Below are positions 1-33,799 of a stretch of 64,000 bases of DNA, in pieces; the first letter of the stretch is position 1, and each line of letters begins with the position of its first letter. The stretch is from the IMG/VR virus record IMGVR_UViG_3300022468_000843; one strand, 5' to 3'. The translations under genes were made by a program, and so were the position numbers. The notes below the pieces were generated by a model. The model was not told where the DNA came from. It did no database searches and worked only from the letters and a program-made list of their open reading frames with translations. Source of the stretch: an uncultured virus (IMG/VR IMGVR_UViG_3300022468_000843). Lineage: Duplodnaviria > Heunggongvirae > Uroviricota > Caudoviricetes.

Positions 1-68
1 GGGGCAGACCGGGGCGCGCGGGGACGCGGCGGGCGGCAGGCGGCCATGGGTTGAGGTGTAGGGGGCGG

Positions 69-254
69 TCACAGCAGGCTCCTTGCGGCGCGCTCGATGG
101 CGGCTTTGAGGTCTCGGCGGGCGCGGCGGGCACGGCGCTCGCTGGCCTCGAGCTCGCGCTTGGCGCGCAGGTCAGAGACAGCCATGCGGGCGACGAACAC
201 GCAGAAGGCCACCACAAAGCAGAGCAGCGCGACCTCGATGGCGGCGCGCATCAC
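69..254 (-). CDS. Small membrane protein
   Basis: N-terminal hydrophobic helix, basic tail; 4-nt overlap with the upstream ORF. Confidence 0.6.
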   Translation of the reverse strand: MMRAAIEVALLCFVVAFCVFVARMAVSDLRAKRELEASERRARRARRDLKAAIERAARSLL

Positions 255-577
255 AGCCAGCCCTCGGCTCGCGCAACGACGGCCACCAGCGCCAGCATGG
301 TGAGCAGCAGCAGGATGTAGGCGGCGACGTGCGACTCGGGCTCCAGCGGATCGGCGAAGCGCTCGTCGGCCATGGGCGGCGGTTCGGCGGGCTTGGGCTG
401 CGCGACTCTGGCGACGGGGACGCTGCCGTAGTAGCCGTGGTCGGTGACGCGGCGGCGGTAGGCGGGGCGCGGGGAATGCGGCGGGGCGTCGCTGGACTCG
501 GGCCAGGCGACCTCTGGGAAGTGGACGTGCTCGCCGGGCGGGTGCTCGGCGGGGGTTGGGGCGTCGGGTTCGGTCAT
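251..577 (-). CDS. Pro-rich hypothetical protein with C-terminal TM helix
   Basis: Start trimmed to MTEPDAP; coupled overlap with the next gene. Confidence 0.6.
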   Translation of the reverse strand: MTEPDAPTPAEHPPGEHVHFPEVAWPESSDAPPHSPRPAYRRRVTDHGYYGSVPVARVAQPKPAEPPPMADERFADPLEPESHVAAYILLLLTMLALVAVVARAEGWL

Positions 578-605
578 GGGTGGGGCGCAGTTGGAAAGCG
601 GGGGG

Positions 606-920
606 TCAGGCGGCGCGGGCAGCGCGATCGCGCTCCCACTGTTCGAGCACGGCGGCCTCAAGGCGGCGGCGGACCTCGGCACCGTAGGCGGCGGGGTCAG
701 CGCCCACCGGTGGGGCGGCTGCCGCGGCGGCGGCGACGTTGGCGATGAAGGCTCGGCGGGAATCGCGGTCGTCCAGGCGCAGGATGCGCACGACGCGCAG
801 GTGGCGCTCGTGGCACTCGGCCTGCCACGCGGGGGCGTAGTTGCACGACGGCGCACCGGTGGCCAGCGCCAGGGGCTTGTGCCACTGGTCGGTGGCGCGG
901 CCGCAGTGCTCGCAGGTCAC
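606..920 (-). CDS. Hypothetical protein (N-terminal CxxC)
   Basis: ORF in coupled leftward operon. Confidence 0.6.
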   Translation of the reverse strand: MTCEHCGRATDQWHKPLALATGAPSCNYAPAWQAECHERHLRVVRILRLDDRDSRRAFIANVAAAAAAAPPVGADPAAYGAEVRRRLEAAVLEQWERDRAARAA

Positions 921-1447
921 AGGCGGGCGCCCAGGGCGCGGGCGGCGCCGGTGGTGACGGTGTAGTCGTGGGGCTGCAGGCGGCCGGCCTCGATGTCGCG
1001 GATCCGGCGATCGGTCGCGCGGAAGGCCCGGATGACGGAACGGGCAGGCGCAGCGAGCAGGATGGCAGCCCAGTCCTCGACCATGCCCTCGACCGACGGG
1101 AAGTCGGCGGCGGGCAGGACGACGGGATCACCCGGCGCGCGGGCCGCCTGGGTTGCGCGCTTGAGCGCGTCGAAGCCGTCCTGCAGCAGACCGTCGGGGT
1201 CAGCAGCGAGCCCTTGTTGGAGCATGGTTTCCAGGACGTTGCCCACCATGCAGCACAGCGACCACGCGGTGATGGTTGCCGTTTCGGGCGACCGCATGCG
1301 TACCAGGGCGGAGCGGGCAGCGGCGATGCGGCCTGCGTGCACCTCGGGCGGCGCAGGCTCGTCCGGCGACGCGAGCAGCTCGTCCATCATGGTGAAGCAG
1401 TCGATTTGCGCGACGCTGGAGCGGCGGGAGCGGGGGCGTTGTTTCAT
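917..1447 (-). CDS. Hypothetical phage protein
   Basis: ORF with 4-nt overlap, protein-like composition. Confidence 0.7.
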   Translation of the reverse strand: MKQRPRSRRSSVAQIDCFTMMDELLASPDEPAPPEVHAGRIAAARSALVRMRSPETATITAWSLCCMVGNVLETMLQQGLAADPDGLLQDGFDALKRATQAARAPGDPVVLPAADFPSVEGMVEDWAAILLAAPARSVIRAFRATDRRIRDIEAGRLQPHDYTVTTGAARALGARL

Positions 1448-1474
1448 GCGGCCAACAAAATTAATGAGGCAATT

Positions 1475-2227
1475 TTACACCCAAAGCGGAGACGGCGGTT
1501 CGGCGGCGCGCAGCGTGTGGGCGTCCAGCAACGTGAAGCGGCCCGGCGGGCGCCAGCCCCGGGTGTCGATGAAGTGGACGTTGCCGAGCACGGACGGCGC
1601 ATCGGCCGGGGAGTGGCCGACCACCACGGCGCGAACGCCAGCGACCTCGTCGGTGATCCCCTTGTCGAAGCGGTCGCGCGACCACTGGGCCCGGTCGATC
1701 AGGTTCTCGCGGGCGCCATTCGACAGCGCGGGGCTTTCCAGGGCTTCGACGAACGCGGGCCAGGACAGGCCAGGCACGTCGGCGTGCACGATGCCGACCA
1801 GGCCGCCCGCGGTCTCGATCTGGATTGCCACGGGCAGCGCGGCGAAGGCGGCGGCGAAGTCTCGCTGCACGTCGGGCGGGTTCGAGACATTCCAGGCGCC
1901 GCCGTTGACGACGTAGTGGCCCGGGAACATGAAGCCGAGCGGCCAGCGGATGGCGTAGTCCTCGTGGTTGCCCGAGACGGCGTGGAACCAGGGGCGGGCC
2001 AGCCAGTCGAGCGCCTGGTCGGACTCGGGCCCGCGGTCCACCAGGTCGCCGACGGAGAAAAGGCGGTCGCGCGCGGGGTCGAAGGCGACGGCGTCGAGCG
2101 CGGCCTGCAGGCGGGTGAAGTGGCCGTGCACGTCGCCGACGATGAGGTCACGCCCCAGGGGGTTGCGGGCGAAGCGGGCCACGAGCGGGCCGGTCTGGTT
2201 GATTTTGCTCAAAATTATTGCTCCCAT
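1475..2227 (-). CDS. Ser/Thr protein phosphatase (lambda NinI/PphA-like metallophosphoesterase)
   Basis: GDVHG, GDLVDRG, GNHE motifs; true start may be TTG at 2212 after GGAG. Confidence 0.93.
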   Translation of the reverse strand: MGAIILSKINQTGPLVARFARNPLGRDLIVGDVHGHFTRLQAALDAVAFDPARDRLFSVGDLVDRGPESDQALDWLARPWFHAVSGNHEDYAIRWPLGFMFPGHYVVNGGAWNVSNPPDVQRDFAAAFAALPVAIQIETAGGLVGIVHADVPGLSWPAFVEALESPALSNGARENLIDRAQWSRDRFDKGITDEVAGVRAVVVGHSPADAPSVLGNVHFIDTRGWRPPGRFTLLDAHTLRAAEPPSPLWV

Positions 2228-2321
2228 GCGCCCCGGCAGCGCCCCGACAGCGCCGCTTTAGGCTAAATACTCAATGAAATCAAGCGGTTACGCGCCCTGA
2301 TGACCTGATTACAAATCTGGT
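2227..2321. other. Second att-like site: three arm-type repeats, IHF box, core-type inverted repeat
   Basis: TGCGCCCC-ggc-AGCGCCCC-gac-AGCGCCGC (2227-2256), AATCAAGCGGTTA (2278-2290), ACCTGA-TTACAAA-TCTGGT (2303-2321). Confidence 0.55.
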
Positions 2322-2687
2322 TCAGCCCGGATTCGGCACCTCGGCGGCCACGATGACCGACGGCATGTCGGGCGTGGGCGACGGGTTCACGACGCAGCGA
2401 ATCCCGGCGTCGACCAGCGAGTGGCCAGACTTCGAGCCCTTGGTGGGCCGGCGGATCTTGGTACCGCAGCAGCACAGCGCGTCGGCGGCTTCGGCCACGG
2501 CCTCAAGGCCGCAGTTGGTGCAATGGTAGCGGCGCGAAGCCCCACCAGCGCCCTGGGACACCAGGCGGGAGAAGCAGGCGCGGCAGATGTGGGGTTCGAG
2601 ACGCCAGGAATCCTGCGTCTGGGCTGAGGGCTCGCAGGATTCCTGCGCTGGAGCGGCCTCACGCGCAGGCGCCCGCGCGCGCCCCAT
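2322..2687 (-). CDS. Cys-rich zinc-binding hypothetical protein
   Basis: HICRAC, CTNCG, CCCG motifs; start uncertain. Confidence 0.7.
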   Translation of the reverse strand: MGRARAPAREAAPAQESCEPSAQTQDSWRLEPHICRACFSRLVSQGAGGASRRYHCTNCGLEAVAEAADALCCCGTKIRRPTKGSKSGHSLVDAGIRCVVNPSPTPDMPSVIVAAEVPNPG

Positions 2688-2806
2688 TGACGATTTGCCC
2701 CCGCATTCCGCCTCACCGCTCAAATTCCCTGAACGATCGCCCCCCGCACCTTTCAGATTTTCTGAAGGCTCGTCAAACAGCCGAAGTGAGTGCCCACCAA
2801 CCCCCT

Positions 2807-3406: not shown

Positions 3407-3679
3407 TCACTTCCGTGAGTTGCGCAGGAGATCGATCACGTCGAGCCGCCAGTAGATCCCGCCGCCCCGCACCGTTCGGCACAAGCCCAAGTCCCGCGCA
3501 AACTTGGTCGGCTCAAGCGAGTTGTCCGGCGACACCCTGCCTTGCAGGCTTCGGCGGGTCAGCATGCCATCGACGCTCGACGCCGGGATGCCCATTCGCT
3601 TCGACAGAAACGCCACGTTCGCAAATATGCCGTGGATCACATTGGGACCGACGTCCCGCTTTTTCGGCTTGGTTTTCAT
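3407..3679 (-). CDS. Small basic, possibly DNA-binding protein
   Basis: Start trimmed to MKTKPKK; wHTH-like pattern. Confidence 0.5.
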   Translation of the reverse strand: MKTKPKKRDVGPNVIHGIFANVAFLSKRMGIPASSVDGMLTRRSLQGRVSPDNSLEPTKFARDLGLCRTVRGGGIYWRLDVIDLLRNSRK

Positions 3680-3714
3680 GCCCTGATGTTTGATCAGAAA
3701 CAGCCCAAACGGCG

Positions 3715-4035
3715 GAGGGAACTCGATCTTTGCTGAGTTCCACCCAAGTTCCGCCCAGGTTCCACCAACAAAACAGCTCTTATATATATATTTATAAGGG
3801 TATTTAGTAAGTAGTAGTAGGGAGGGAGGAACCAGTGGAACTTCTTTATTGAGACAAACCCCATACAAGAACCAATTTATTTACAGATCACACACATATG
3901 TTTGTTCGGCGTGTGATATATTTAATTCCCCTTTATACCGTTTTGCGCCCGGGTTACCGGTTCCTCGGTTCCACCCAGCAAAATCAGGGGGTTTCGCGGA
4001 ACCGACCAGTTCCACCCGCCTTCCAGTTCCACCCT
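3715..4035. repeat. Candidate replication origin: AT-rich core with (G/A)GTTCC(A) repeats in both orientations
   Basis: About ten GTTCC/GGAAC boxes around TTATATATATATTTATAAG in a divergent intergenic region. Confidence 0.55.
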
Positions 4036-13176: not shown

Positions 13177-13353
13177 ATGAAGCACATCCCCATTGCCATT
13201 TTTGCCGTCGGCGCCCTCATGCTGGTGGTGCACCTTTTTCAGAAGCTGGCAACCGGCTTCGGATACGCCGACGCAACCGACGCGATCGCCACCCTGGTGC
13301 TCGCCGGCGTCGCGCATTTTCTCTTTTCGGACAAGCAGAAAACAGCCGGATAA
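13177..13353 (+). CDS. 58-aa two-TM membrane protein not in ORF track
   Basis: AGGAG RBS; MKHIPIAIFAVGALMLVV... Confidence 0.7.
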   Translation: MKHIPIAIFAVGALMLVVHLFQKLATGFGYADATDAIATLVLAGVAHFLFSDKQKTAG

Positions 13354-13388
13354 AAACAATTTTGACCTAGAATCAAGGCCTCACCACC

Positions 13389-13409
13389 AGGGCCCATCGG
13401 GGCCCTTTT
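13389..13409 (+). terminator. Intrinsic terminator-like hairpin
   Basis: GGGCCC-ATCG-GGGCCC then TTTTC. Confidence 0.55.
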
Positions 13410-13422
13410 CTGCACCCGAAGC

Positions 13423-13980
13423 ATGTCCAAATCATACGTCCCACAGCCCGGCACCATCCCTCACCGCGTCATCGAGTACCTGCGTCGCCTCGCACCAGGA
13501 ACCCAGGCCGCAAACGCCGTCCTGGCCGACGAGCTGGACATCACCCAGTCGTCGATCATCATCTGCATGCTGGCCGCCCAGCACCACGGCGTCGTCAAGC
13601 GCGAGCGCCGGGAGGGCGTCATTTACTGGAGCCTTGGTGACGGCGTCCCTCTGGGGCCCGCACCAGATGCCGATGAAGACCCGGAGATGAAGTCCAAGAT
13701 CGTGCTCACACCAGCCGCCGCCGCTACAACCAACGACAAGCTGGCCAAGCGGCTGGAGAAGGCCATCAAGACAGGGGAGATTCCTCAGCCGGCACCGGAT
13801 CCAGATACCGAGCCGTGCCCCATCCAGATCAAGCTGAACCTTCCGCCACCTGAGCCCGTCTTCGGCGCGTTCAGCGACGGCAGCCTGAGCATCGACCACG
13901 GCGGCACGTTCCTGCGCCTCGGCGAGAAGCACGCCCAGGCGCTGCAGGCGTTCATGAGCCGGGCCTGGAAGCGGCCATAA
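13423..13980 (+). CDS. Protein with N-terminal winged HTH
   Basis: NAVLADELDITQSSI...GVVKRERR. Confidence 0.75.
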   Translation: MSKSYVPQPGTIPHRVIEYLRRLAPGTQAANAVLADELDITQSSIIICMLAAQHHGVVKRERREGVIYWSLGDGVPLGPAPDADEDPEMKSKIVLTPAAAATTNDKLAKRLEKAIKTGEIPQPAPDPDTEPCPIQIKLNLPPPEPVFGAFSDGSLSIDHGGTFLRLGEKHAQALQAFMSRAWKRP

Positions 13981-14056
13981 CCCCGCGCCGCGGTCTGGAA
14001 TTGTGCAGCAACAAAATTATTGAGGCAAAATCCAGACATCGCAACCAGGAGCCAAC
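13977..14056 (+). promoter_or_regulatory. Early promoter/operator module copy 6
   Basis: ATAACCCCGCGCC; CAGCAACAAAATTATTGAGGCAA (14006-14028); AGGAG. Confidence 0.72.
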
Positions 14057-14197
14057 ATGCACCGCCAGCACACACAAGACCTCAGCACACCACCAACGCG
14101 GGCAGAGCGCCGCGCGCAGGCCGGCTACGACTTCCTTTGCGCCTTGGTGATCGGCTGCGGGCTGGCGGCTGGACTGGTTTACGGCTGGAGCATTTGA
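14057..14197 (+). CDS. 46-aa single-TM protein not in ORF track
   Basis: AGGAG RBS; MHRQHTQ...FLCALVIGCGLAAGLVYGWSI. Confidence 0.65.
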   Translation: MHRQHTQDLSTPPTRAERRAQAGYDFLCALVIGCGLAAGLVYGWSI

Positions 14198-14265
14198 CAG
14201 CACCAGCTCCTGCCCGGTGACAGGGGGCAGCGGCGGGGATTGTCCCGGCAACACCACAACACACC

Positions 14266-17959: not shown

Positions 17960-20722
17960 TCAGATCGGCGGCTCGTCATCGCCCAGGATGTGCGACAGCG
18001 GGATGGCCACCACCTTCGAGGTCACGCCGGCAAACTTGAACGTCTGGTTGCCCGCCACGTTGGCGCCCTGTACGCGCAGGAGCTGCCCGCGAAGGTCGGT
18101 CGCATAGGCCGTGTCCTCGACCAGCTTGCGCAGGCTCTTGCTGCCCGTGCCGAACAGCGCCTCGGTGCCCTTGATGCGAATCCCGTTGCGGCGCAGCACG
18201 TCCACACACAGATCGACCTCCAGCGTGCCAGAGCCGACGGCGCGGCCGGACGCGGCGGCCAGCATTTCGTAGACGGTGATGTCGTTGTTGGACACCCGAA
18301 TCTTGGCCTCCATCACCGAGGCCAGCGCCTTCGCCGGGTCGTCCAGGCCGTCGCCCGAATCCTTGTGGTCCGACCAATCGAAGCTGTCGATCATGGCCAG
18401 GGCCTCCGCCTCGGTGGCCACCTTGCGGCTCGTCAGGCACCAGGCGCCCGCCAGCAGCGTGCCGTACTGGTCGCCCATGCGCTGCGTCCCGAAGCGAAGG
18501 GCGCCGGCTTTGCAGAACACCTCCACGTTCGCGATGATCGTCGGCAGCATGGACAACGAGCGGGCCAGCAGGCGAGCGGGCCAGGTGCCGGCGCGCTTGA
18601 TCTTATGGAGCTCCTCCTCGAGCTGCGCCCACTGGGCATCAACCGTGTCCGTTTTCACCGGCGGGCGCAGCACCAGGGGCGTGATGCGCGAGCGATCGCT
18701 GTCCTTGTCGAGCATCGTGTTGATGGACGCAAGGCAGAACATCGAGCGCACGTGAAAGCGCATGCCGCTGCCCGAGATGGTGCCCTTGGCCGTCTGCGCC
18801 GACGTTTCCGTCGACGACTGGCGCACCGTGGTGAGGATGGACTTCATCCGCTTGCGGTCGGCTTCATCGTTGGGCTCGAACTCGTCGATCAGGATGGGCA
18901 CCGCGTCGGCGCCGACCGATTGACGAATGCCGGGCTCGGTGGAATCGCCGGCCAGCGGCTCGGAGATGCCCTCCAGCAGCGCCTGCGCGTATTCCTCGTA
19001 CAGCGTGGACTTGCCAGAGCCCGCGGCGCCGGTGATCCAGATGTGGGGGCGCCATGGCAGGGCCCCGCAGATGGGCGACAGGAACACCCAGCCGGCCAGC
19101 AGCGGCGCGGATCCAGGGCGGGCCCACTTCGCCAGCTTGGCGACGTTCAGCAGGTGCAGGCCTTCCTCGTCGGTGACGGGGTCCGGTGCTGGCGCTGGCA
19201 TCGACTTCGACATGGGGTACACCCAGGACGAGCCCGTCATGCCGGAGATCTCCACGCGCGCGCCATCGACGGACAGGTGGTCGCCGTGGTGGAAAACCAC
19301 CCGGCCCTTGTCGTTCCAGGCGCCGCGGCCGCGCACCCGGCGCGGGTCGTAGATGCCGCGCGCGTGGGCCAGGGCGATCAGCCACTCGAAGGCCGCCGCC
19401 TTGTTGATGCCGCCAGCCTTGCCCGGGGCGGAGAAATACATTTCCCACCAGTTCATCGGGGCCAGCTCAACGAAGCCGGTATCCGAGCTGAACGTCGAGC
19501 GCGTGCGCGAGATCACCTGCTGCTTCGCCCGGTGAAAGAACCAGTAGTCGTCGCCGTCGTAGCCCAGGACCACGAAGTGCGCGCCGGCATCGATGCTGTC
19601 GAATTCCTCGTTGGGAACAGGCATGGCGGGCTGCTCGTCGAGCGCCGCGTCCTGGTGCTCGGGCTCAGGCTCCGAAGCCGGCGCAGGCGCAGGCGGTTGG
19701 ACGGTGGCGCTGACCAGCGCGAGCTCGATCTGCTCCGCGACAGCGGGAAGACCCTCGGCCACAGCCATATCGTTGAAGTCGCCGCCGGCGGGCGGAAAGG
19801 CCACGAGACAGCCCGACTCCTTCGCTGCCTTGTTGGCCTCGGCGAGCCCCGGGTTGCCCTCGGTGGCGGTGTCGTTGTCGGCGGCCACCACCAGGATGGC
19901 ACCAGGCGCACGCTCGCGGAGCTGGCGCGCGACGTTGCGCAGGTTGCCAGCGTCCACGCACACCATGACCATGTGGCCAGTGGCCTCATGCACGCTCGCG
20001 CCGGTGGCGTAGCCCTCGGCCAGGATGAACACCGGGCGGCCGTCCACTTGCGCCGGCTTCTTGCCGATGACAAAGAAGTTGCCGGACTTACGGCCGCTCT
20101 TGAGCAGAGACTTGCGGCCGTCGGGCTTCGAGCTGAACGCCTGGAGCGTCCAGATTTTCCGGCTGCGATCCATGATCGGCATCAGCAGCGCCTGCAGGCC
20201 GATGACCGTCACCTCGCCAGTCTCGCCGTCCACCTTCTCGATTTCAAAGCGCCCGTAGCGCAGGCCATGCGACTGCACGCCCTTGCGCTCCAGGTAGGCA
20301 TGGTCGTCGCACGGCGCGGCAGCGGCCCACAGCTCCTGCGCCTTCAGGGCTGCGGCCTCTTGGGCGGCCAGCTCCTGCTGCGCGGCCAGCGCATCACGCT
20401 CGGCGCGCGCCTTGCGGCGTTGTTCAATTTCAGCGGCCGACGGCTTCTTGTGGGTGGTGTCGTCCTTCCAGCCCGCCTGCTTTGCGTCGTAGAACAACGA
20501 CGCAATGGTGATGCCCTTGCCGGCCTTTACGGATTTCCAGACATCGCGCGCATCGATGGCGCGGTAGGCTTTACTCAGCGAAGACCACTGGTCCCAGATT
20601 TCAAAGCCATCCTCGCCAAACTCGGATTTGATGGCCATGGCCTGCCGAACCCAGACAGCCCGGGTTTCGGGTGACAGATGGCTGAGGGCAGCACGAACAC
20701 GTTCTGGATTGGCGTCATGCAT
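17960..20722 (-). CDS. Primase-helicase (PriCT-2, TOPRIM, P-loop ATPase)
   Basis: WDQWS..Y..W, AEGYATG, ADND, GDFND, GAAGSGKS, LIDE. Confidence 0.92.
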   Translation of the reverse strand: MHDANPERVRAALSHLSPETRAVWVRQAMAIKSEFGEDGFEIWDQWSSLSKAYRAIDARDVWKSVKAGKGITIASLFYDAKQAGWKDDTTHKKPSAAEIEQRRKARAERDALAAQQELAAQEAAALKAQELWAAAAPCDDHAYLERKGVQSHGLRYGRFEIEKVDGETGEVTVIGLQALLMPIMDRSRKIWTLQAFSSKPDGRKSLLKSGRKSGNFFVIGKKPAQVDGRPVFILAEGYATGASVHEATGHMVMVCVDAGNLRNVARQLRERAPGAILVVAADNDTATEGNPGLAEANKAAKESGCLVAFPPAGGDFNDMAVAEGLPAVAEQIELALVSATVQPPAPAPASEPEPEHQDAALDEQPAMPVPNEEFDSIDAGAHFVVLGYDGDDYWFFHRAKQQVISRTRSTFSSDTGFVELAPMNWWEMYFSAPGKAGGINKAAAFEWLIALAHARGIYDPRRVRGRGAWNDKGRVVFHHGDHLSVDGARVEISGMTGSSWVYPMSKSMPAPAPDPVTDEEGLHLLNVAKLAKWARPGSAPLLAGWVFLSPICGALPWRPHIWITGAAGSGKSTLYEEYAQALLEGISEPLAGDSTEPGIRQSVGADAVPILIDEFEPNDEADRKRMKSILTTVRQSSTETSAQTAKGTISGSGMRFHVRSMFCLASINTMLDKDSDRSRITPLVLRPPVKTDTVDAQWAQLEEELHKIKRAGTWPARLLARSLSMLPTIIANVEVFCKAGALRFGTQRMGDQYGTLLAGAWCLTSRKVATEAEALAMIDSFDWSDHKDSGDGLDDPAKALASVMEAKIRVSNNDITVYEMLAAASGRAVGSGTLEVDLCVDVLRRNGIRIKGTEALFGTGSKSLRKLVEDTAYATDLRGQLLRVQGANVAGNQTFKFAGVTSKVVAIPLSHILGDDEPPI

Positions 20723-20753
20723 AGACGCCCCTGGAAAAATTCAGCAACACAAG

Positions 20754-20857
20754 CCTCCCCCGCTGCGCCTCCCCCGGGTGAAAAAATGGTGGGCGGCGCG
20801 CACAGGGGGGAGGACTGCGCGCGCCTTTTTAGACCGGGAGCTACCCGGTCCTAGCCC
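20754..20857 (-). ncRNA. Putative structured cis-regulatory RNA leader of primase
   Basis: Two hairpins closed by GGGC/GCCC; loop CCTCCCCC complementary to two downstream GGGGGAGG. Confidence 0.6.
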
Positions 20858-20924
20858 TTAACAGGATGGCACCACGGCCGATGAGTCGCGCCGTGATTGC
20901 CGTGCATTTGAGTGAGCTGGCATC

Positions 20925-21380
20925 TTACAGCGGATCCGGCGTCCGGCCGGCGAGCCATGCATCAATAATCTCGTTGGCCTGCGCCTCGGATGCAGCAAAC
21001 CCAGCAATACCGCCGGCTTTTTGCACCTGCTGCACGAAGTTGATCTGGTTCGTGCGCCGGTGGCCACCGCCCGATTCTTTCGTTTCGATGACGGTGAAGA
21101 CGGGCAAGCGCCGGCCGACCATTTCAGGCGTGACCACCACGTCGGTCCACCCAGCCAGGTCAGCGAGGCCTGGTACGGTGTCACCGTTCGTGAGGGCGAG
21201 CCCCAGGGCGACCGGGCGGGCGAAGGGAACGTGCGCGGTGCCGCGGGCGTCCACCTCAACCCGGCCACCGCCGGACAGCCAGGCCTTGCCCGAGTTCGCG
21301 CGGAACAGCGTCACTCGAGCGAGCGCCCGGCGCGCCAGGGCGAGCCAGACGTTGCGCTGGACGGTTGACTCAGCGGCCAT
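20925..21380 (-). CDS. VRR-NUC domain nuclease
   Basis: E..VQ, LFRANSG, GLADL.G, IETK, Q..F, GGIAG. Confidence 0.88.
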   Translation of the reverse strand: MAAESTVQRNVWLALARRALARVTLFRANSGKAWLSGGGRVEVDARGTAHVPFARPVALGLALTNGDTVPGLADLAGWTDVVVTPEMVGRRLPVFTVIETKESGGGHRRTNQINFVQQVQKAGGIAGFAASEAQANEIIDAWLAGRTPDPL

Positions 21381-28962: not shown

Positions 28963-29184
28963 TTGACCCAGGCTGAGGTGAAAGTCGCGGAGTTCCTGAC
29001 CACCAAGGAACTGTCCGCGCGCTGGGGTGGACGGATCACAGTCCGCACCCTGGAAAACTGGCGGTCCACATCGAACGGGCCGCCGTTCGTGAAGCTCGGA
29101 GGCGCAGTCCTGTACCGCGTCTCCGACATCGACAGGTGGGAAAGCTCGCGCACCGTCAACGGCACGAGCCAGTACCGAAAGTAA
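28963..29184 (+). CDS. Excisionase/AlpA-like winged HTH
   Basis: FLTTKELSARW..TLENWR..GPPFVKLG..VLY..DI..WE. Confidence 0.85.
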   Translation: MTQAEVKVAEFLTTKELSARWGGRITVRTLENWRSTSNGPPFVKLGGAVLYRVSDIDRWESSRTVNGTSQYRK

Positions 29185-29231
29185 AACGCGATCGCCGGCG
29201 CGCGCCCACGCCGGCACCATTGGAGATAGAC

Positions 29232-29504
29232 GTGAACAAAGCAGAACTGATTGCAAGCATCGCCGGCAGCACCGGCAACACAAAGACCACCGTGTCCCAG
29301 GTGCTCGAAGCAATGGAAACCATCGCCTGCAACACCCTGAGCGGCGGCGACGAAGTAACGCTGCCCGGCCTCGGCAAGCTGACACCCGTGAAGAAAGCCG
29401 CTCGCACCGCGCGCAACCCGCGCACCGGCGAGAAGATCGAAAAGCCCGCCACGACGGTGGTGAAGTTCCGCGTCGCGAAGACGCTCAAGGACTTGGTGGC
29501 CTGA
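29232..29504 (+). CDS. hup: HU family DNA-binding protein
   Basis: NKAELI...LPGLGKL...ARTARNPRTGE...KF; GGAG + GTG start. Confidence 0.93.
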   Translation: MNKAELIASIAGSTGNTKTTVSQVLEAMETIACNTLSGGDEVTLPGLGKLTPVKKAARTARNPRTGEKIEKPATTVVKFRVAKTLKDLVA

Positions 29505-31905: not shown

Positions 31906-32198
31906 ACCCGCCCAACGCACCAGGGCAGCGCTGCCGCGTCATCGGGGGCCGTATGGCCTTCAATGGCGAGGGCAAGGGCCCGAACCAGGGCAAGGAGGTG
32001 GTGACCGTCTTCTTGCACGCAGAGCAAGCCGGCCCGGAGCAAGAGAACGTCTGGCGCTGCCGGGCGGCCGAGGGCCAAACGCTGCAGACCTACTACAGCG
32101 CAGGCCAAGAGGCCGACTTCCTCGAATGCTGGCTGGAGGTCATCGAGCCGGACGCCGCGCCGCCGAAGGTCGCGGAGCGCGAGCACGAGATGCACTAG
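31902..32198 (+). CDS. Hypothetical protein
   Basis: GTGA overlap. Confidence 0.65.
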   Translation: MNPPNAPGQRCRVIGGRMAFNGEGKGPNQGKEVVTVFLHAEQAGPEQENVWRCRAAEGQTLQTYYSAGQEADFLECWLEVIEPDAAPPKVAEREHEMH

Positions 32199-32203
32199 CG
32201 GTT

Positions 32204-32496
32204 TGCGCCCCAGGAGCGCCCCAGCTCCAAAACCACACAGACGCGCCGATTCGTTGACTGCAACGGACGGCGCGTTTATCGTTGTGTTTACAGGGGTTTT
32301 TGAGAAGAAAGGATGGCGCGCCCGGAGAGATTCGAACTCCCGACCCCCAGATTCGTAGGCGGGATTTAAGGGCTCACAGAAGTGCACGCGATCACCGGAT
32401 AACGCCTGATTTCAGCGGCTTACCGGACTGACGCACCACCAGCAGATCACACAAACTCACGCCAACAGCCGGATTTCTGCGCCCCAAGAGCGCCCC
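32204..32496. other. attP region with arm-type repeats
   Basis: TGCGCCCC-NNN-AGCGCCCC at 32204-32222 and 32478-32496 flanking the tRNA fragment, directly upstream of int. Confidence 0.8.
32314..32358 (-). other. 3' half of tRNA-Arg(ACG): att identity block, not a full tRNA
   Basis: CTACGAA TCTGG GGGTC GGGAG TTCGAAT CTCTC CGGGCGC G CCA; no D-arm or 5' acceptor strand. Confidence 0.9.
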
Positions 32497-32530: not shown

Positions 32531-33799
32531 ATGAGCAAGAAAATCACAAAGACGATGGTCGACAAGGCCGAAGCAAACCTGCACAGCGACGTGTGGCTTT
32601 GGGACGGCGAGGTGGAGGGCTTCGGCGTGCGCATTAAGCCCACCGGCCGCAAGACCTACGTGGTCCGGTACCGGGCTGCCGACGGCACCCAGCGCAAGAT
32701 GACGATCGGCCGCTGCAGCGACATGCCGCCCGAGAAGGCGCGCGAGCTGGCCCGCAAGACGTTCACCCAGGTGGCCGAGGGCCAGGATCCCGCCGCGACG
32801 CGCGCGCCCTCCAAGAAGGACAAGGCGATCACGGTGCGCGGCATGTTCGAGGCCTACGTGGCGCACATGCGCAGCAAGGGCCGGGTCAGCGTGATGGAGG
32901 TCGAGCGGGCCCTGCTGCTGGCCAGCAACAACGCAGCGGACGCCCTGGGCGCGGACAAGCACCCAGCGGCCGTCGAGCCCATGGACATCGTGAAGTACCT
33001 CGCGCGCTTCTACAAAGCAGGCCACCGCGGCGCCGCCGACAAGCACCGCAGCTACATCGCCAGCGCGTACAACTGGGCGATGAAGTCGGCAAACGACTAC
33101 ACGGCGGAGCACCGGCAGGACTGGGGCATCACCACGAACCCGGGCGCGCTGGTACCCAAGGACGCCGGCGCGATCGGCACGCGCGACCGCAACCTGTCAG
33201 CCCTGGAGCTGCAGACGGTCTGGGCGGCCACCGCCCCGGGCGCGCCAGGGTTCAGCCCCGAGCTCGCCGTGTGCATCCGCCTGCTCGTCGGCTGCGGCCA
33301 GCGCGTGCAGGAAACCCTGCGCATCGACGGGCGCGACATCAACCTCAAGACGGGCGAGTGGCGCATGCCGGCGGAGAAGACCAAGGGCCGCAAGTTCCCG
33401 CACACCATCCCCCTGCCCAGCGCGGTGCTGCCGAGCCTGGAGCTGCTGATTGCCATACACGGCGACGGCGCCCTGTTTCCGGCCCGTGGAGCCAAGGCGG
33501 ACGAGCGGATGGACCACCGCAGCGTCATGCAGGCGATCGAGCGCCTGTGCGAGCGTGAGAGCCTGCAGGCGTTCCAGAGCCGCGACATCCGCCGCACCTG
33601 GAAGTCCCGGGCGCACGAAGCCGGCGTGGACCGCTTCACGCGCGACCTGATCCAGCAGCATGCTCAGAATGGAAATGCCGGGTCTAAGCATTACGACCGC
33701 GCTGAATATGGACCCCAGATGAAGGAAGCTATGGCAAAGTGGTCGGCATGGCTGGAAGAAAAAGTCACCAACCCAACGCCGCTGGCGAAGGCTGCATGA
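32531..33799 (+). CDS. int: Tyrosine integrase with N-terminal arm-binding domain
   Basis: WD....GFGVR...GRKTY..RYR; GQR..E, K, RDIRRT, QQH, KHYDR. Confidence 0.95.
   Translation: MSKKITKTMVDKAEANLHSDVWLWDGEVEGFGVRIKPTGRKTYVVRYRAADGTQRKMTIGRCSDMPPEKARELARKTFTQVAEGQDPAATRAPSKKDKAITVRGMFEAYVAHMRSKGRVSVMEVERALLLASNNAADALGADKHPAAVEPMDIVKYLARFYKAGHRGAADKHRSYIASAYNWAMKSANDYTAEHRQDWGITTNPGALVPKDAGAIGTRDRNLSALELQTVWAATAPGAPGFSPELAVCIRLLVGCGQRVQETLRIDGRDINLKTGEWRMPAEKTKGRKFPHTIPLPSAVLPSLELLIAIHGDGALFPARGAKADERMDHRSVMQAIERLCERESLQAFQSRDIRRTWKSRAHEAGVDRFTRDLIQQHAQNGNAGSKHYDRAEYGPQMKEAMAKWSAWLEEKVTNPTPLAKAA

What the first reader, a model, noticed from the sequence alone, without database searches (positions are those of the whole stretch)
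2227..2321. A second att-like site 30 kb from attP, apparently for the same integrase
Seen: the doublet TGCGCCCC-NNN-AGCGCCCC (11-bp period) flanks the tRNA fragment at 32204 and 32478 and recurs exactly at 2227-2245, with a third unit at 2249. It is followed by a perfect IHF consensus (WATCAANNNNTTR; AATCAAGCGGTTA, 2278-2290) and an inverted repeat around a 7-bp spacer (2303-2321). Read on the minus strand this core is CCAGA-TTTGTAA-TCAGG, versus CCAGA-TTCGTAG at attP on the plus strand. TTTGTAA also looks like a tRNA-Thr(UGU) anticodon loop, but no tRNA 3' half follows. Known: lambda-family att sites are built from arm repeats, IHF sites and a core with a 7-bp overlap. Inference: one integrase has two phage sites. 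This could allow an alternative integration target, inversion/resolution of the 30-kb early-replication segment, or a split (bipartite) prophage.
Basis: partly seen in the sequence, partly recalled or inferred. Interest (0 to 1): 0.85.

Follow-up and report, generated by a model that had tools for sequence, protein, structure and literature searches.

The report
Dispersed integrase docking sites in phage
The flagged 95-base gap between two phage genes looks like a real docking site for the phage's own integrase, but it is one copy of a repeated element that related 90-kb phages carry several times between their accessory genes, not a second integration site.

Summary
TGCGCCCC-N3-AGCGCCCC occurs exactly three times in the window: at 2227 and on both sides of the tRNA-Arg attP core.

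Positions 2227-2321 fill the gap between a Zn-ribbon-like ORF and a NinI-like phosphatase gene. They form one ~92-bp composite element:
- an inverted repeat CCWGA-N7-TCWGG directly after the upstream stop codon;
- a spacer of 57-60 bp;
- two or three arm-type units with an 11-bp period, directly before the next gene.

Related ~90-kb temperate myoviruses (Dolphis, Jeremy, PHB04, Touem01, IMG/VR contigs, a Microvirga prophage) carry about 2-9 such elements in their early or accessory operons. The doublet matches each phage's own attP arm motif (GCGCCC versus GGGCCCC). The inverted repeat follows the attP core (tRNA-Arg/His versus tRNA-Gly type). The P4-type integrase is therefore the likely binder.

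The elements lie inside a prophage whose ends are the tRNA att sites. The 7-bp spacers all differ, and the one here differs from attP's at 2 of 7 positions. Alternative integration, inversion or a split prophage is unsupported.

The function is open. I favour overlap-addressed module-exchange joints, with a transcriptional roadblock as runner-up. I found no description in print.

The parts
2227..2256 (+). Three arm-type units with an 11-bp period: TGCGCCCC (2227-2234), AGCGCCCC (2238-2245) and AGCGCCGC (2249-2256). On the gene-sense (minus) strand they read GGGGCGC and abut the phosphatase start codon and RBS.
   Evidence: The same doublet occurs at both attP arms. The corresponding doublets in relatives match each phage's own arm motif.
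2257..2303 (-). Variable central spacer of the element. It includes an exact IHF-consensus match (2278-2290 on +), a TTGATT hexamer that could be a -35 box, and the conserved TCA block next to the core.
   Evidence: only exact match in the window; the orthologous elements L172 and L176 carry an exact IHF consensus in the same orientation and 45 nt from the doublet, as here. Across the family only 4 of 61 have one.
2304..2320 (-). Core-type inverted repeat CCAGA-TTTGTAA-TCAGG (minus strand). It has two 5-bp half-sites around a 7-bp spacer and starts 1 nt after the stop codon of the upstream ORF.
   Evidence: It has the same form as the tRNA anticodon-arm cores of attP in relatives. In Dolphis one pattern finds the 7 elements plus the attP core and nothing else.
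1475..2227 (-). Downstream gene: NinI-like Ser/Thr phosphatase (metallophosphoesterase).
   Evidence: phrog_246, 1.3e-59. (PF00149, 1.1e-13).
2322..2690 (-). Upstream gene: small Cys-rich (Zn-ribbon-like) ORF with stop codon at 2322-2324. Its homologues in relatives are also followed by an element.
   Evidence: translation; GC3 0.83; homology to the left flanks of L164, L169, L172, L176, L191, L197, L201. No Pfam or PHROG hit.
32204..32222 (+). attP left arm-type doublet, 124 nt from the core.
32314..32363 (+). attP core region. It comprises a 45-nt tRNA-Arg(ACG) 3' fragment (tRNA sense is on the minus strand) and the core CCAGA-TTCGTAG-GCGGG at 32347-32363.
   Evidence: The same fragment lies next to int in Dolphis, Touem01, G014 and the Microvirga prophage.
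32478..32496 (+). attP right arm-type doublet, 35 nt upstream of the int start codon.
32531..33799 (+). P4-type tyrosine integrase with an N-terminal arm-binding domain. It is the proposed binder of all three doublets and of the core-type repeat.
   Evidence: PF13356 Arm-DNA-bind_3, 1.6e-17; PF00589, 2e-13. (phrog_1).
29136..29504 (+). Phage-encoded HU/IHF-family DNA-bending protein, a possible accessory factor for the elements and attP.
   Evidence: PF00216, 3.2e-27. Any role at the element is inference only.

Best explanation
Positions 2227-2321 are one copy of a dispersed, ~92-bp 'pseudo-att' element of a lineage of ~90-kb temperate myoviruses. In layout it resembles an attL: a core plus one arm.

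Proposed mechanism (inferred, not shown):
- The integrase's N-terminal arm-binding domain binds the two or three WGCGCCCC units.
- Its core-binding and catalytic domains bind the two CCWGA half-sites 57-60 bp away.
- A bend in the A+T-rich middle, made by IHF or the phage's HU-like protein, lets one Int assembly bridge both.
- The result is a fixed nucleoprotein joint exactly between the stop codon of one gene module and the ribosome-binding site of the next.

It is not a second attP and is not used for integration.

My odds:
- The phage's own Int is the protein that recognises these elements: about 0.7. The confidence given for this explanation refers to this core claim.
- Given that, exchange joints: about 0.4. 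Int would swap the downstream module only with a partner element carrying the same 7-bp spacer, such as the cognate element of a co-infecting relative or a resident prophage. The unique spacers would prevent deletions within one genome.
- Given that, an Int-dependent transcriptional roadblock or insulator: about 0.3.
- The rest is open.
For: SHOWN

1. The doublet is non-random and, within the window, confined to attP and this site.

2. In relatives the attP arms carry the same kind of 11-bp doublets on both sides of a tRNA-derived core. Dolphis has TGCGCCCGA nine times, PHB04 has TGYGCCCTA, and Touem01 has TGGGGCCCGA. The Microvirga prophage, G014, G007 and G010 show the same.

3. The same doublets recur away from attP in intergenic gaps. 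Dolphis has 7 and PHB04 has 6 (positions checked against annotation). Jeremy has 7, Touem01 has 4 and G008 has 5.

4. Arm covariation. Touem01 and G008, whose arms are of the GGGCCCC type, have GGGCCCC-type dispersed doublets. Touem01 has 0 GCGCCC doublets. The GCGCCC-arm phages have GCGCCC-type dispersed doublets.

5. Core covariation. I count only the 29 elements that were found through their doublets. The right half-site is GCTGT in 6 of 11 elements of the three phages whose attP core is a tRNA-Gly-like arm (ACAGC-N7-GCTGK). It is GCTGT in 0 of 18 elements of the tRNA-Arg/His-targeting phages, which have TCWGG-like halves.

6. In Dolphis the pattern MCWGAYN5RTCWKK hits the 7 elements and the attP core and nothing else, with 0 control hits.

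7. Fixed geometry. All 61 IMG/VR matches have an arm-to-core gap of 57-60 nt, although 52-64 was allowed. The window has 59.

8. The repeat behaves as two protein half-sites and not as a hairpin. The W positions are complementary in 31 elements and not in 30.

9. Link to int. Genomes with an int carry 2-9 copies. Two complete int-less phages have 1 each. Int-less Mecenats66 has the core pattern only at control level.

10. Exchange-joint reading.
- Of 39 homologous element pairs from different contigs, 28 share homology on only one side of the core.
- In Dolphis versus Jeremy, a 99.8%-identical block ends within 4 nt of one core. Homology then resumes inside the next core.
- G012 versus G013 show two further junctions at cores.
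- No 7-bp spacer is repeated within a contig, and 43 of 58 spacers are distinct.
Against: - No binding or recombination data exist. Int as the binder rests on sequence covariation among related phages, which are not independent samples. The GGGCCCC type is seen in one lineage only (Touem01 and G008).
- PHB04 half-sites are mixed (ACAGA, TCAGT and others), so core covariation is not clean. G007 has TCTGT and not GCTGT.
- G011, a 49.9-kb phage with the closest integrase (64%) and the same TGCGCCCC arms, has no dispersed copies. The elements therefore belong to the ~90-kb lineage and not to the integrase as such.
- Two complete phages without any PF00589 gene still hold one element each.
- G012 and G013 keep int and 5 elements but have no recognisable attP. 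That fits a second job for Int but leaves its specificity there untested.
- Against the exchange reading: in Dolphis versus Jeremy, breakpoints fall at 2 of 7 element-bearing gene boundaries and at roughly 9 of 36 others by my hand count. There is thus no clear enrichment.
- One junction (G012 66057) also changes the 7-bp spacer, which a simple Int exchange would not do.
- Spacers of deep orthologues differ.
- Only one copy lies in this window, and the remaining ~28 kb of this phage could not be read.
Confidence: 0.68

Rival explanations
1. The element is Int-bound as above, but its job is purely regulatory. Int assemblies at gene boundaries would block or insulate transcription of the early and accessory operon, for example in the lysogen. 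This would resemble the oriented 'stoperator' sites of mycobacteriophage L5 (recalled).
For: - Every element is oriented with transcription, also where PHB04, G007 and G010 have operons in both directions.
- The doublet lies 0-30 nt before the next RBS or start codon.
- The middle holds terminator-like hairpins in 9 of 58 elements or extended -10 promoters (L161, L183, L194, L205). A bound protein would therefore sit on transcription signals.
- Arm-type sites that overlap an int promoter and repress it are known for KplE1 IntS (PMC2951348; I saw only the listing and the start of the abstract).
Against: - The middle is heterogeneous: a promoter, a terminator or neither. The doublet is upstream of the promoter in some copies and downstream in others, so there is no uniform regulatory geometry.
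- A roadblock would not need two inverted half-sites with an exact 7-bp spacer.
- The window's switch region uses a different repeat, GTTCCACCC.
Confidence: 0.3
2. A different phage protein binds the doublets both at attP and at the dispersed sites. Candidates are a Cox/Apl-like excisionase-regulator or another factor that recognises direct repeats one helical turn apart. Int would not be involved at the dispersed sites.
For: - Direct repeats with a spacing of about 11 bp are the binding mode of P2 Cox and 186 Apl, which act at attP and at promoters (recalled).
- The window encodes a weak HTH_17/excisionase-like ORF at 28963-29184.
- It also encodes an unassigned 91-aa ORF at the head of the leftward operon.
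Against: - The doublets flank the core on both sides in all relatives examined, which is typical of Int arm sites.
- The dispersed elements also carry a core-type repeat that follows the attP core. An excisionase would not explain that.
- Int-less phages have 0-1 copies.
Confidence: 0.12
3. The elements are inert scars, hybrid att sites left by past Int-mediated insertion of gene cassettes into the phage genome (tandem accretion). They would have no present function.
For: - Rows of cassettes bounded by att scars were noted in other genomes of this scan (e1-3023385, e1-4383620, e1-707880; AI notes, unchecked).
- The elements bound small accessory gene modules.
Against: - Accretion at one site leaves scars that share a core. 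Here 43 of 58 spacers are distinct and none is repeated within a contig.
- No tRNA-derived sequence extends beyond the stem-like repeat.
- Half-sites, arm units and a 57-60-nt spacing are kept across phages whose flanking genes are only ~70% identical. That implies selection.
Confidence: 0.08
4. One reading: a second attP-like site that the same Int uses for alternative integration, for inversion or resolution of the 30-kb segment between the two sites, or for a split prophage.
For: The site has the same arm doublet as attP, a core-like repeat and an IHF consensus between them.
Against: - Arm units lie on one side only, 58 nt from the core. In attP they lie about 120 nt away on both sides.
- The spacer TTTGTAA differs from attP's TTCGTAG at 2 of 7 positions.
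- Relatives carry about 2-9 copies per genome.
- The 94.2-kb Microvirga prophage is bounded by the tRNA-Arg repeats, with all 6 composite elements inside it. All 5 TGCGCCC-N5-GCGCCC matches of the 4.9-Mb genome lie in that prophage.
- No tRNA 3' half follows the site.
Confidence: 0.04
5. An RNA-level or plain promoter-terminator element: a stem-loop plus leader acting in the transcript, or a sigma-54-like GG-N10-GC promoter, with no integrase involved.
For: - The element is oriented with transcription.
- The repeat could fold as a 5-bp stem with a 7-nt loop.
- GGGCGC-N5-GGGCGC loosely resembles a -24/-12 promoter (recalled consensus).
Against: - The central stem position is complementary in only 31 of 61 elements.
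- There is no Rfam match at E<=1.
- The start codon lies 0-13 nt after the doublet in several copies, which leaves no room for a leader.
- This reading does not explain why both motifs follow attP.
Confidence: 0.04

Closest known systems
Lambda-type attL (core C/C', IHF site H', arm sites P'1-P'3) and the complex attP sites of P4/P2-type integrases (details recalled, not from a call)
   Same: A core of two inverted half-sites around a 7-bp overlap. A bend site lies in the middle. Two or three direct arm-type units with a period of about 11 bp lie roughly 60 bp to one side. The integrase is heterobivalent, with an arm-binding N-domain (PF13356).
   Different: The element is present in about 2-9 copies inside the phage's own genome, each with a different 7-bp spacer. 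It is not at a phage-host junction, not next to int, and not derived from the tRNA target. The true attP of these phages has arms on both sides at about 120 nt.
Integron cassette arrays (attC sites between promoterless cassettes; recalled)
   Same: Recombination-type sites sit exactly at gene-module borders in one orientation along an array of small accessory genes. The neighbours on either side of a site assort independently.
   Different: The integrase is a P4-type phage integrase and not an IntI. The sites have arm units. The repeat is not kept complementary (31 against 30), so no folded single-strand attC is implied. There are no repeated spacers and no attI.
Stoperators of cluster A mycobacteriophages (L5 gp71; I saw only the listing of PMC6550527, other details recalled)
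   Same: Asymmetric protein-binding sites are dispersed in short intergenic gaps and oriented with transcription.
   Different: Stoperators share sequence with the immunity operator and bind the repressor. Here the motif equals the att arm and core sites. The window's switch region carries another repeat, GTTCCACCC.
Start-associated sequences (SAS/ESAS) of cluster K mycobacteriophages (PMC3203893; listing and start of abstract only)
   Same: A conserved repeat sits just before many start codons, with a partner inverted repeat upstream. Its function is unknown.
   Different: No link to att sites or integrase has been reported for SAS. Lengths and spacing differ.
Heterospecific lox/FRT cassette exchange (an engineered method) and the R64 shufflon sfx sites of recombinase Rci (both recalled)
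   Same: One tyrosine recombinase acts on several sites whose spacer or arm differences decide which pairs may recombine.
   Different: Those systems have no arm-type sites. The shufflon inverts segments within one locus. Natural exchange between phage genomes addressed by the spacer is a proposal here and has not been shown.

Membership tests
Functional attP of a heterobivalent tyrosine integrase | Core of two inverted core-type half-sites around a 6-8-bp overlap | tested here: met
   2304-2320 reads CCAGA-TTTGTAA-TCAGG on the minus strand.
Functional attP of a heterobivalent tyrosine integrase | Arm-type sites on both sides of the core | tested here: not met
   Units occur only at 2227-2256. 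No GCGCCC doublet lies on the other side of the core.
Functional attP of a heterobivalent tyrosine integrase | Overlap identical to that of a partner site (attB or attP) | tested here: not met
   TTTGTAA against attP's TTCGTAG differs at 2 of 7 positions. No host genome was available in which to look for another partner.
Functional attP of a heterobivalent tyrosine integrase | Forms the prophage-host junctions after integration | tested here: not met
   Tested in a relative only. The Microvirga prophage ends are the tRNA-Arg repeats at 680804 and 774969, and the elements at 706-723 kb are internal.
attL-like Int-binding site (core plus one arm) | Core, bend site and direct arm units on one side at a fixed, helically phased distance | tested here: met
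   The gap is 59 nt here and 57-60 nt in all 61 IMG/VR copies. The extra unit here and the shorter G012 copy differ by about one helical turn.
attL-like Int-binding site (core plus one arm) | Bound by the cognate integrase | not testable with these tools
   There is only covariation of arm and core motifs with each phage's attP.
Integron attC | Associated IntI-type integrase, and an imperfect palindrome that folds as single-stranded DNA | tested here: not met
   Int carries PF13356 plus PF00589, the P4 type. The stem position is complementary in 31 of 61 elements.
Stoperator-type repressor sites | Dispersed, intergenic, oriented with transcription | tested here: met
Stoperator-type repressor sites | Same sequence as the operator of the immunity switch | tested here: not met
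   The switch region 3700-4020 carries GTTCCACCC repeats and not GCGCCCC. These are operators by my reading only.
IHF binding site | Match to WATCAANNNNTTR | tested here: met
   2278-2290 is the only exact match in the window. It is conserved in place and orientation in orthologues L172 and L176, but present in only 4 of 61 family members. Binding was not tested.
Known RNA family (Rfam 15) | Covariance-model match | tested here: not met
   No match at E<=1 in 1900-2700.

The most novel reading that the evidence does not exclude
These phages run a natural form of recombinase-mediated cassette exchange.

- The integrase that inserts the phage into a tRNA gene also recognises up to about 9 attL-like joints placed between accessory and anti-defence gene modules.
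- Each joint is addressed by its own 7-bp overlap.
- Int can therefore swap a module only with the cognate joint of a co-infecting relative or a resident prophage, and it never deletes within one genome.

This would be a site-specific engine of phage mosaicism. It would be integron-like in outcome but built from a lambda/P4-type att architecture. G012 and G013 keep int and the joints after losing attP, which would then make sense.
Probability: 0.25. Interest if true: 0.9.

Novelty: new variant of a known kind. Interest (0 to 1): 0.78.

Why it matters
Integrase arm and core sites are textbook parts of a single attP. Here the same parts appear as a conserved, multi-copy element inside the phage genome, placed exactly at gene-module borders, and their sequence follows each phage's own attP.

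If Int binds them, a phage integrase has a second, genome-wide job. One possibility is a site-specific route to the mosaic exchange of accessory and anti-defence genes. The other is a new kind of prophage silencing.

Both ideas can be tested directly with Int, a few 100-bp DNA fragments and cultured phages (Dolphis, Jeremy, Touem01, PHB04).

There is also a practical lesson. Arm-type repeats found away from int should not be read as extra attachment sites.

Tried and rejected
- Own genome: not held. G001 and a 22-kb contig are 100% identical fragments of the same phage and do not reach site 2. The other ~28 kb of this phage could not be scanned.
- Phosphatase relatives: 11 loci in IMG/VR and 77 loci in metagenomes. 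All are at most 60% identical, apart from one 56-residue piece. None has the doublet upstream. This route gave no syntenic relatives.
- Integrase as a single query in genome contigs found nothing.
- The doublet pattern in IMG/VR gave 47 loci. By BLAST against the window, 45 are unrelated chance hits.
- A sigma-70 scan of 1900-2900 found no promoter and only two weak terminator-like hairpins.
- Rfam: nothing.
- Pfam and PHROGs gave nothing for the flanking small ORFs. Pfam showed no stand-alone arm-binding-domain protein among the window ORFs scanned.
- The composite pattern in bacterial genomes gave 94 loci. Their gaps spread over 52-64 nt, so most are chance or an unrelated repeat of one Anaerolineae MAG. 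Only some are prophages.
- Dolphis versus G012 is too diverged at DNA level to serve as a breakpoint control.
- A mis-spaced tRNA pattern was corrected.
- Paper searches and passages of PMC9503643 showed no description of these elements. The primary papers on PHB04 and Touem01 were not in the library hits. Dolphis is described there as unpublished.
- Considered and dropped: sigma-54 promoter, iterons or a partition site, and an RNA hairpin. The reasons are given under the rival explanations.
Full report
WHAT THE WINDOW IS

The window is phage DNA throughout.
- PHROG and Pfam scans of my ORF calls give a replication and recombination block: primase, helicases, exonucleases, RdgC and dUTPase.
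- They also give a P4-type integrase (32531-33799; PF13356 Arm-DNA-bind_3 plus PF00589), a lysis cassette and myovirus tail genes.
- The nearest held record, G001, is a 49.7-kb fragment. The 3-5-kb stretches compared were 100% identical to the window, and CheckV rates G001 54% complete, so the phage is about 90 kb.
- tblastn places it with Pseudomonas phages Dolphis, Jeremy and Touem01, and Bordetella phage PHB04. Integrase identity is 55-61%. Primase identity is 45-52%, including Aeromonas phage ST4.
- Beside int lies an unintegrated attP. A 45-nt 3' fragment of tRNA-Arg(ACG) (my reading; ARAGORN finds no whole tRNA) sits between two copies of the doublet.

THE OBSERVATION

- TGCGCCCC-N3-AGCGCCCC is exact at 2227, 32204 and 32478, and nowhere else. 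The overlapping third unit at 2249 has one mismatch in its 8 bases (AGCGCCGC). The tally is 4 matches at up to 2 mismatches against 0.58 expected, and 0 of 100 shuffles reached 4.
- The heptamer alone is common, so the 11-bp pairing is the signal.
- The IHF consensus at 2278-2290 is the only exact match in 64 kb.
- The inverted repeat is at 2304-2320 and is imperfect.
- Its 12-mer likeness to the attP core is at chance level by itself.

LOCAL ANATOMY

GC3 profiles and translations show a leftward operon. It starts at an A+T-rich switch region near 3700-3960. Site 2 is the whole 94-bp gap between two genes:
- a Cys-rich ORF with its stop codon at 2322-2324;
- the NinI-like phosphatase gene, whose start is at 2227 or a TTG 15 nt further on.

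On the gene-sense strand the order is: stop codon, CCAGA-TTTGTAA-TCAGG, a spacer, three GGGGCGC units, then the RBS and start codon.

RELATIVES: THE ARMS

Upstream of each related int lies a tRNA-derived core flanked on both sides by direct doublets with an 11-bp period.
- Dolphis has TGCGCCCGA, 7 on the left and 2 on the right.
- PHB04 has TGYGCCCTA around what I read as a tRNA-His fragment.
- Touem01 has TGGGGCCCGA.
- Further cases appear in IMG/VR contigs and in a Microvirga lupini prophage.

This is the layout expected of arm-type sites of an integrase with an arm-binding domain.

RELATIVES: THE DISPERSED COPIES

A search for GCGCCC-N5/6-GCGCCC found 7 further doublets in Dolphis and 6 in PHB04 outside attP. 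All lie in gaps between annotated genes of the long early or accessory operons. The one exception is PHB04 44635, which overlaps the last bases of an annotated CDS.

When 18 such sites are laid in register on the doublet (7 Dolphis, 6 PHB04, 4 Touem01, 1 window), they align without gaps. The shared order is:
- the upstream stop codon;
- A-CCWGAY-N5-RTCWGG;
- a short conserved TCA block;
- a variable middle;
- TT(C/A)-GGGCGC-N5-GGGCGC(A);
- the next RBS.

A composite pattern (doublet, a gap of 52-64, then the repeat) found 61 copies in 25 IMG/VR contigs, most of them 80-96 kb.
- Every gap is 57-60 nt: 13, 34, 12 and 2 copies respectively. The window's gap is 59.
- The same pattern in 596 Gb of bacterial genomes gives gaps spread over the whole allowed range, apart from prophages such as the Microvirga one.

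The window's copy has orthologues. The Zn-ribbon gene to its left is homologous to the left flanks of seven IMG/VR elements. Two of these (L172, L176) carry an exact IHF consensus in the same orientation and at the same 45-nt distance from the doublet.

WHO BINDS: TWO COVARIATION TESTS

Arms.
- Touem01 and its relative G008 have GGGCCCC-type arms. Their dispersed doublets are of the GGGCCCC type: 4 and 5 copies, with one odd GCGCCC doublet in G008.
- Touem01 has no GCGCCC doublet at all.
- Phages with GCGCCC arms have GCGCCC dispersed doublets.
- The window's own variant, with a fourth C and A/T in front, is shared by its attP and by site 2.

Core.
- PHB04 targets a different tRNA whose anticodon stem I infer to be the same CCAGA/TCTGG, from the phage-borne half.
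- G007, G009 and G010 target a tRNA-Gly(CCC)-like arm, ACAGC-N7-GCTGK.
- In those three phages the right half-site of the dispersed repeat is GCTGT in 6 of 11 elements and TCTGT in 5. Their left half is mostly ACWGA (8 of 11).
- None of the 18 elements of the Arg/His class has GCTGT. All 29 were found through their doublets only, so the repeat was not preselected.
- In Dolphis one degenerate core pattern finds the 7 elements plus the attP core and nothing else, with 0 hits for the reversed control.

The repeat is not kept as a hairpin. The variable W positions of the two halves are complementary in 31 of 61 elements. Two protein half-sites fit better than an RNA or cruciform stem, and Rfam finds nothing.

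These results make the phage's own integrase the most economical binder, at about 0.7. Nothing here shows binding. The phages compared are relatives and not independent samples.

LINK TO INT

Counts of dispersed copies in genomes that carry an int:

| Genome | Dispersed copies |
|---|---|
| Dolphis | 7 |
| Jeremy | 7 |
| PHB04 | 6 |
| Touem01 | 4 |
| G008 | 5 |
| G014 | 5 |
| G012 | 5 |
| G013 | 5 |
| G007 | 4 |
| G010 | 5 |
| G016 | 6 |
| G015 | 3 |
| G017 | 3 |
| G019 | 2-3 |
| Microvirga prophage | 6 (composite hits) |

- For G015-G019 I counted doublets and checked the core only in the composite hits. For G012 and G013 the core was seen at 5 and at 4-5 of the counted copies.
- Two complete phages without any PF00589 gene (G018, G021) have one copy each.
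- Int-less Mecenats66 has the core pattern only at control level.
- Against a simple link: G011, a 49.9-kb phage with the closest integrase (64%) and TGCGCCCC arms, has none.
- G012 and G013, both complete with terminal repeats, keep an open int (62-63%) and 5 elements. They have no tRNA-Arg core anywhere and no arm doublets near int. The positive control G014 was found.

WHY IT IS NOT A SECOND ATTACHMENT SITE

- Arm units lie on one side only, 58 nt from the core. In attP they lie about 120 nt away on both sides.
- The spacer TTTGTAA differs from attP's TTCGTAG at 2 of 7 positions.
- Relatives have many copies.
- In the integrated Microvirga prophage the ends are the 30-nt tRNA-Arg repeats, 94.2 kb apart. 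All 5 TGCGCCC-N5-GCGCCC matches of the 4.9-Mb genome lie inside it on one strand, and the 6 composite elements are internal.

WHAT IT DOES (INFERENCE)

The layout is a core, a bendable middle, and two or three arm units about 60 bp away in helical phase. One copy is shorter by about 10 nt, and the window has an extra unit 11 nt nearer. As I recall it, this is the layout of lambda attL, where Int bridges the core and the P' arm over an IHF bend. I see two possible roles.

(a) Exchange joints.
- The 7-bp spacers are nearly all different: 43 distinct of 58, and none repeated within a contig. Recombination within a genome would therefore be barred, while cognate joints of related genomes could recombine.
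- Of 39 homologous element pairs from different contigs, 11 share both flanks, 17 share only the left and 11 only the right.
- In Dolphis versus Jeremy an 11-kb block of 99.8% identity ends within 4 nt after the core of element 79593. Divergence then jumps to about 12% and homology is lost. It returns exactly at the spacer of the next element, where the left half-site differs, CCTGA against CCAGA.
- G012 versus G013 show two more junctions at cores.
- The variable middle often brings its own promoter or terminator, as a module head would.
- Against this role: by my hand count Dolphis and Jeremy break at 2 of 7 element borders and at about 9 of 36 other gene borders. One junction also changes the spacer. 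A conserved intergenic element would mark homology edges under any recombination mechanism.

(b) Roadblock or insulator.
- Orientation always follows transcription, the doublet abuts the RBS, and the middle holds transcription signals.
- However, those signals are placed inconsistently.

I put (a) at about 0.4 and (b) at about 0.3, given that Int binds.

COMPARISON WITH WHAT IS KNOWN

The parts are textbook att parts. The deployment was not found in print: multi-copy, inside the phage, at module borders, each copy with its own spacer, and co-varying with attP.
- Searches gave nothing.
- Passages of PMC9503643, the only library paper that names PHB04, mention neither integrase nor intergenic repeats.
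- The nearest analogues are lambda attL, integron attC arrays, L5 stoperators, cluster K start-associated sequences and the R64 shufflon. All but the listings were recalled from memory.
- Earlier notes of this scan describe att scars that bound cassettes in other genomes. The differing spacers argue against that origin here.

LIMITS

- Only one copy lies in the window, and the rest of this phage was unreadable.
- The tRNA identities (Arg, His, Gly) are my readings of fragments.
- There is no control for breakpoint rates at element-free borders beyond one hand count.
- Supplements of the papers were not opened.
- No experiment or read-level evidence was available.

Noticed in passing
window 3700-4020: The A+T-rich divergent switch region carries a different direct repeat, GTTCCACCC/GTTCCGCCC. 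Three copies with an 11-bp period lie at about 3730-3762, and further copies lie near 3965-4015. It also has a palindrome CCTGATGTTTGATCAGA (3682-3698) abutting the start of a 91-aa ORF (3407-3682, minus strand) that has no family hit. These are probably the operators of the lysis-lysogeny switch.
   Followed up: partly
window 28963-29504: A weak HTH_17/excisionase-like ORF (28963-29184) directly precedes a phage-encoded HU/IHF-family protein (29136-29504; PF00216, 3.2e-27). They are candidate accessory factors for attP and the elements.
   Followed up: no
G012 (IMG/VR 93.5 kb) 20081-21355 and G013: Two complete relatives keep an intact integrase and its TGATCA-palindrome promoter region. They have no tRNA-derived core and no arm doublets next to int, and no tRNA-Arg core anywhere, yet they retain 5 dispersed elements each.
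   Followed up: partly
L140 2320-2345; L143 2318-2340; L303; L142 2340-2365: A conserved palindrome TGATCATTTATGATCA lies between the attP core and the int-proximal arm in Dolphis, Touem01, PHB04, the Microvirga prophage, G010 and G012. It is likely an int promoter or operator. It is absent from the window's attP.
   Followed up: no
window 32241-32285: A perfect 8-bp hairpin, ACGCGCCG...CGGCGCGT, followed by TTTAT lies inside the left arm of attP. It is probably the terminator of the operon that ends at 32198.
   Followed up: no
Genome-contig loci L214, L222, L223, L227, L232-L234 and others (one Anaerolineae MAG, CANJQH01): The composite pattern hit at least 20 contigs of a single MAG, often at contig ends, with gaps of 53 or 64 nt. 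This is an unrelated high-copy repeat of that genome.
   Followed up: no
Aeromonas phage ST4 (OR261032) 33296-33610: A 448-aa open frame matches only the N-terminal arm-binding part of the window's integrase (53% over residues 3-110). The rest is unlike it.
   Followed up: no
window 1-2200: The left end is markedly richer in G+C (0.70-0.75) than the rest (about 0.65). It encodes minus-strand ORFs downstream of the phosphatase that have no Pfam or PHROG hit.
   Followed up: partly
Touem01 (PP179325) 13272-14215: A long gap after one element holds several tRNA-like T-arm motifs (my reading), so it may be a small tRNA cluster. It was not scanned with ARAGORN.
   Followed up: no
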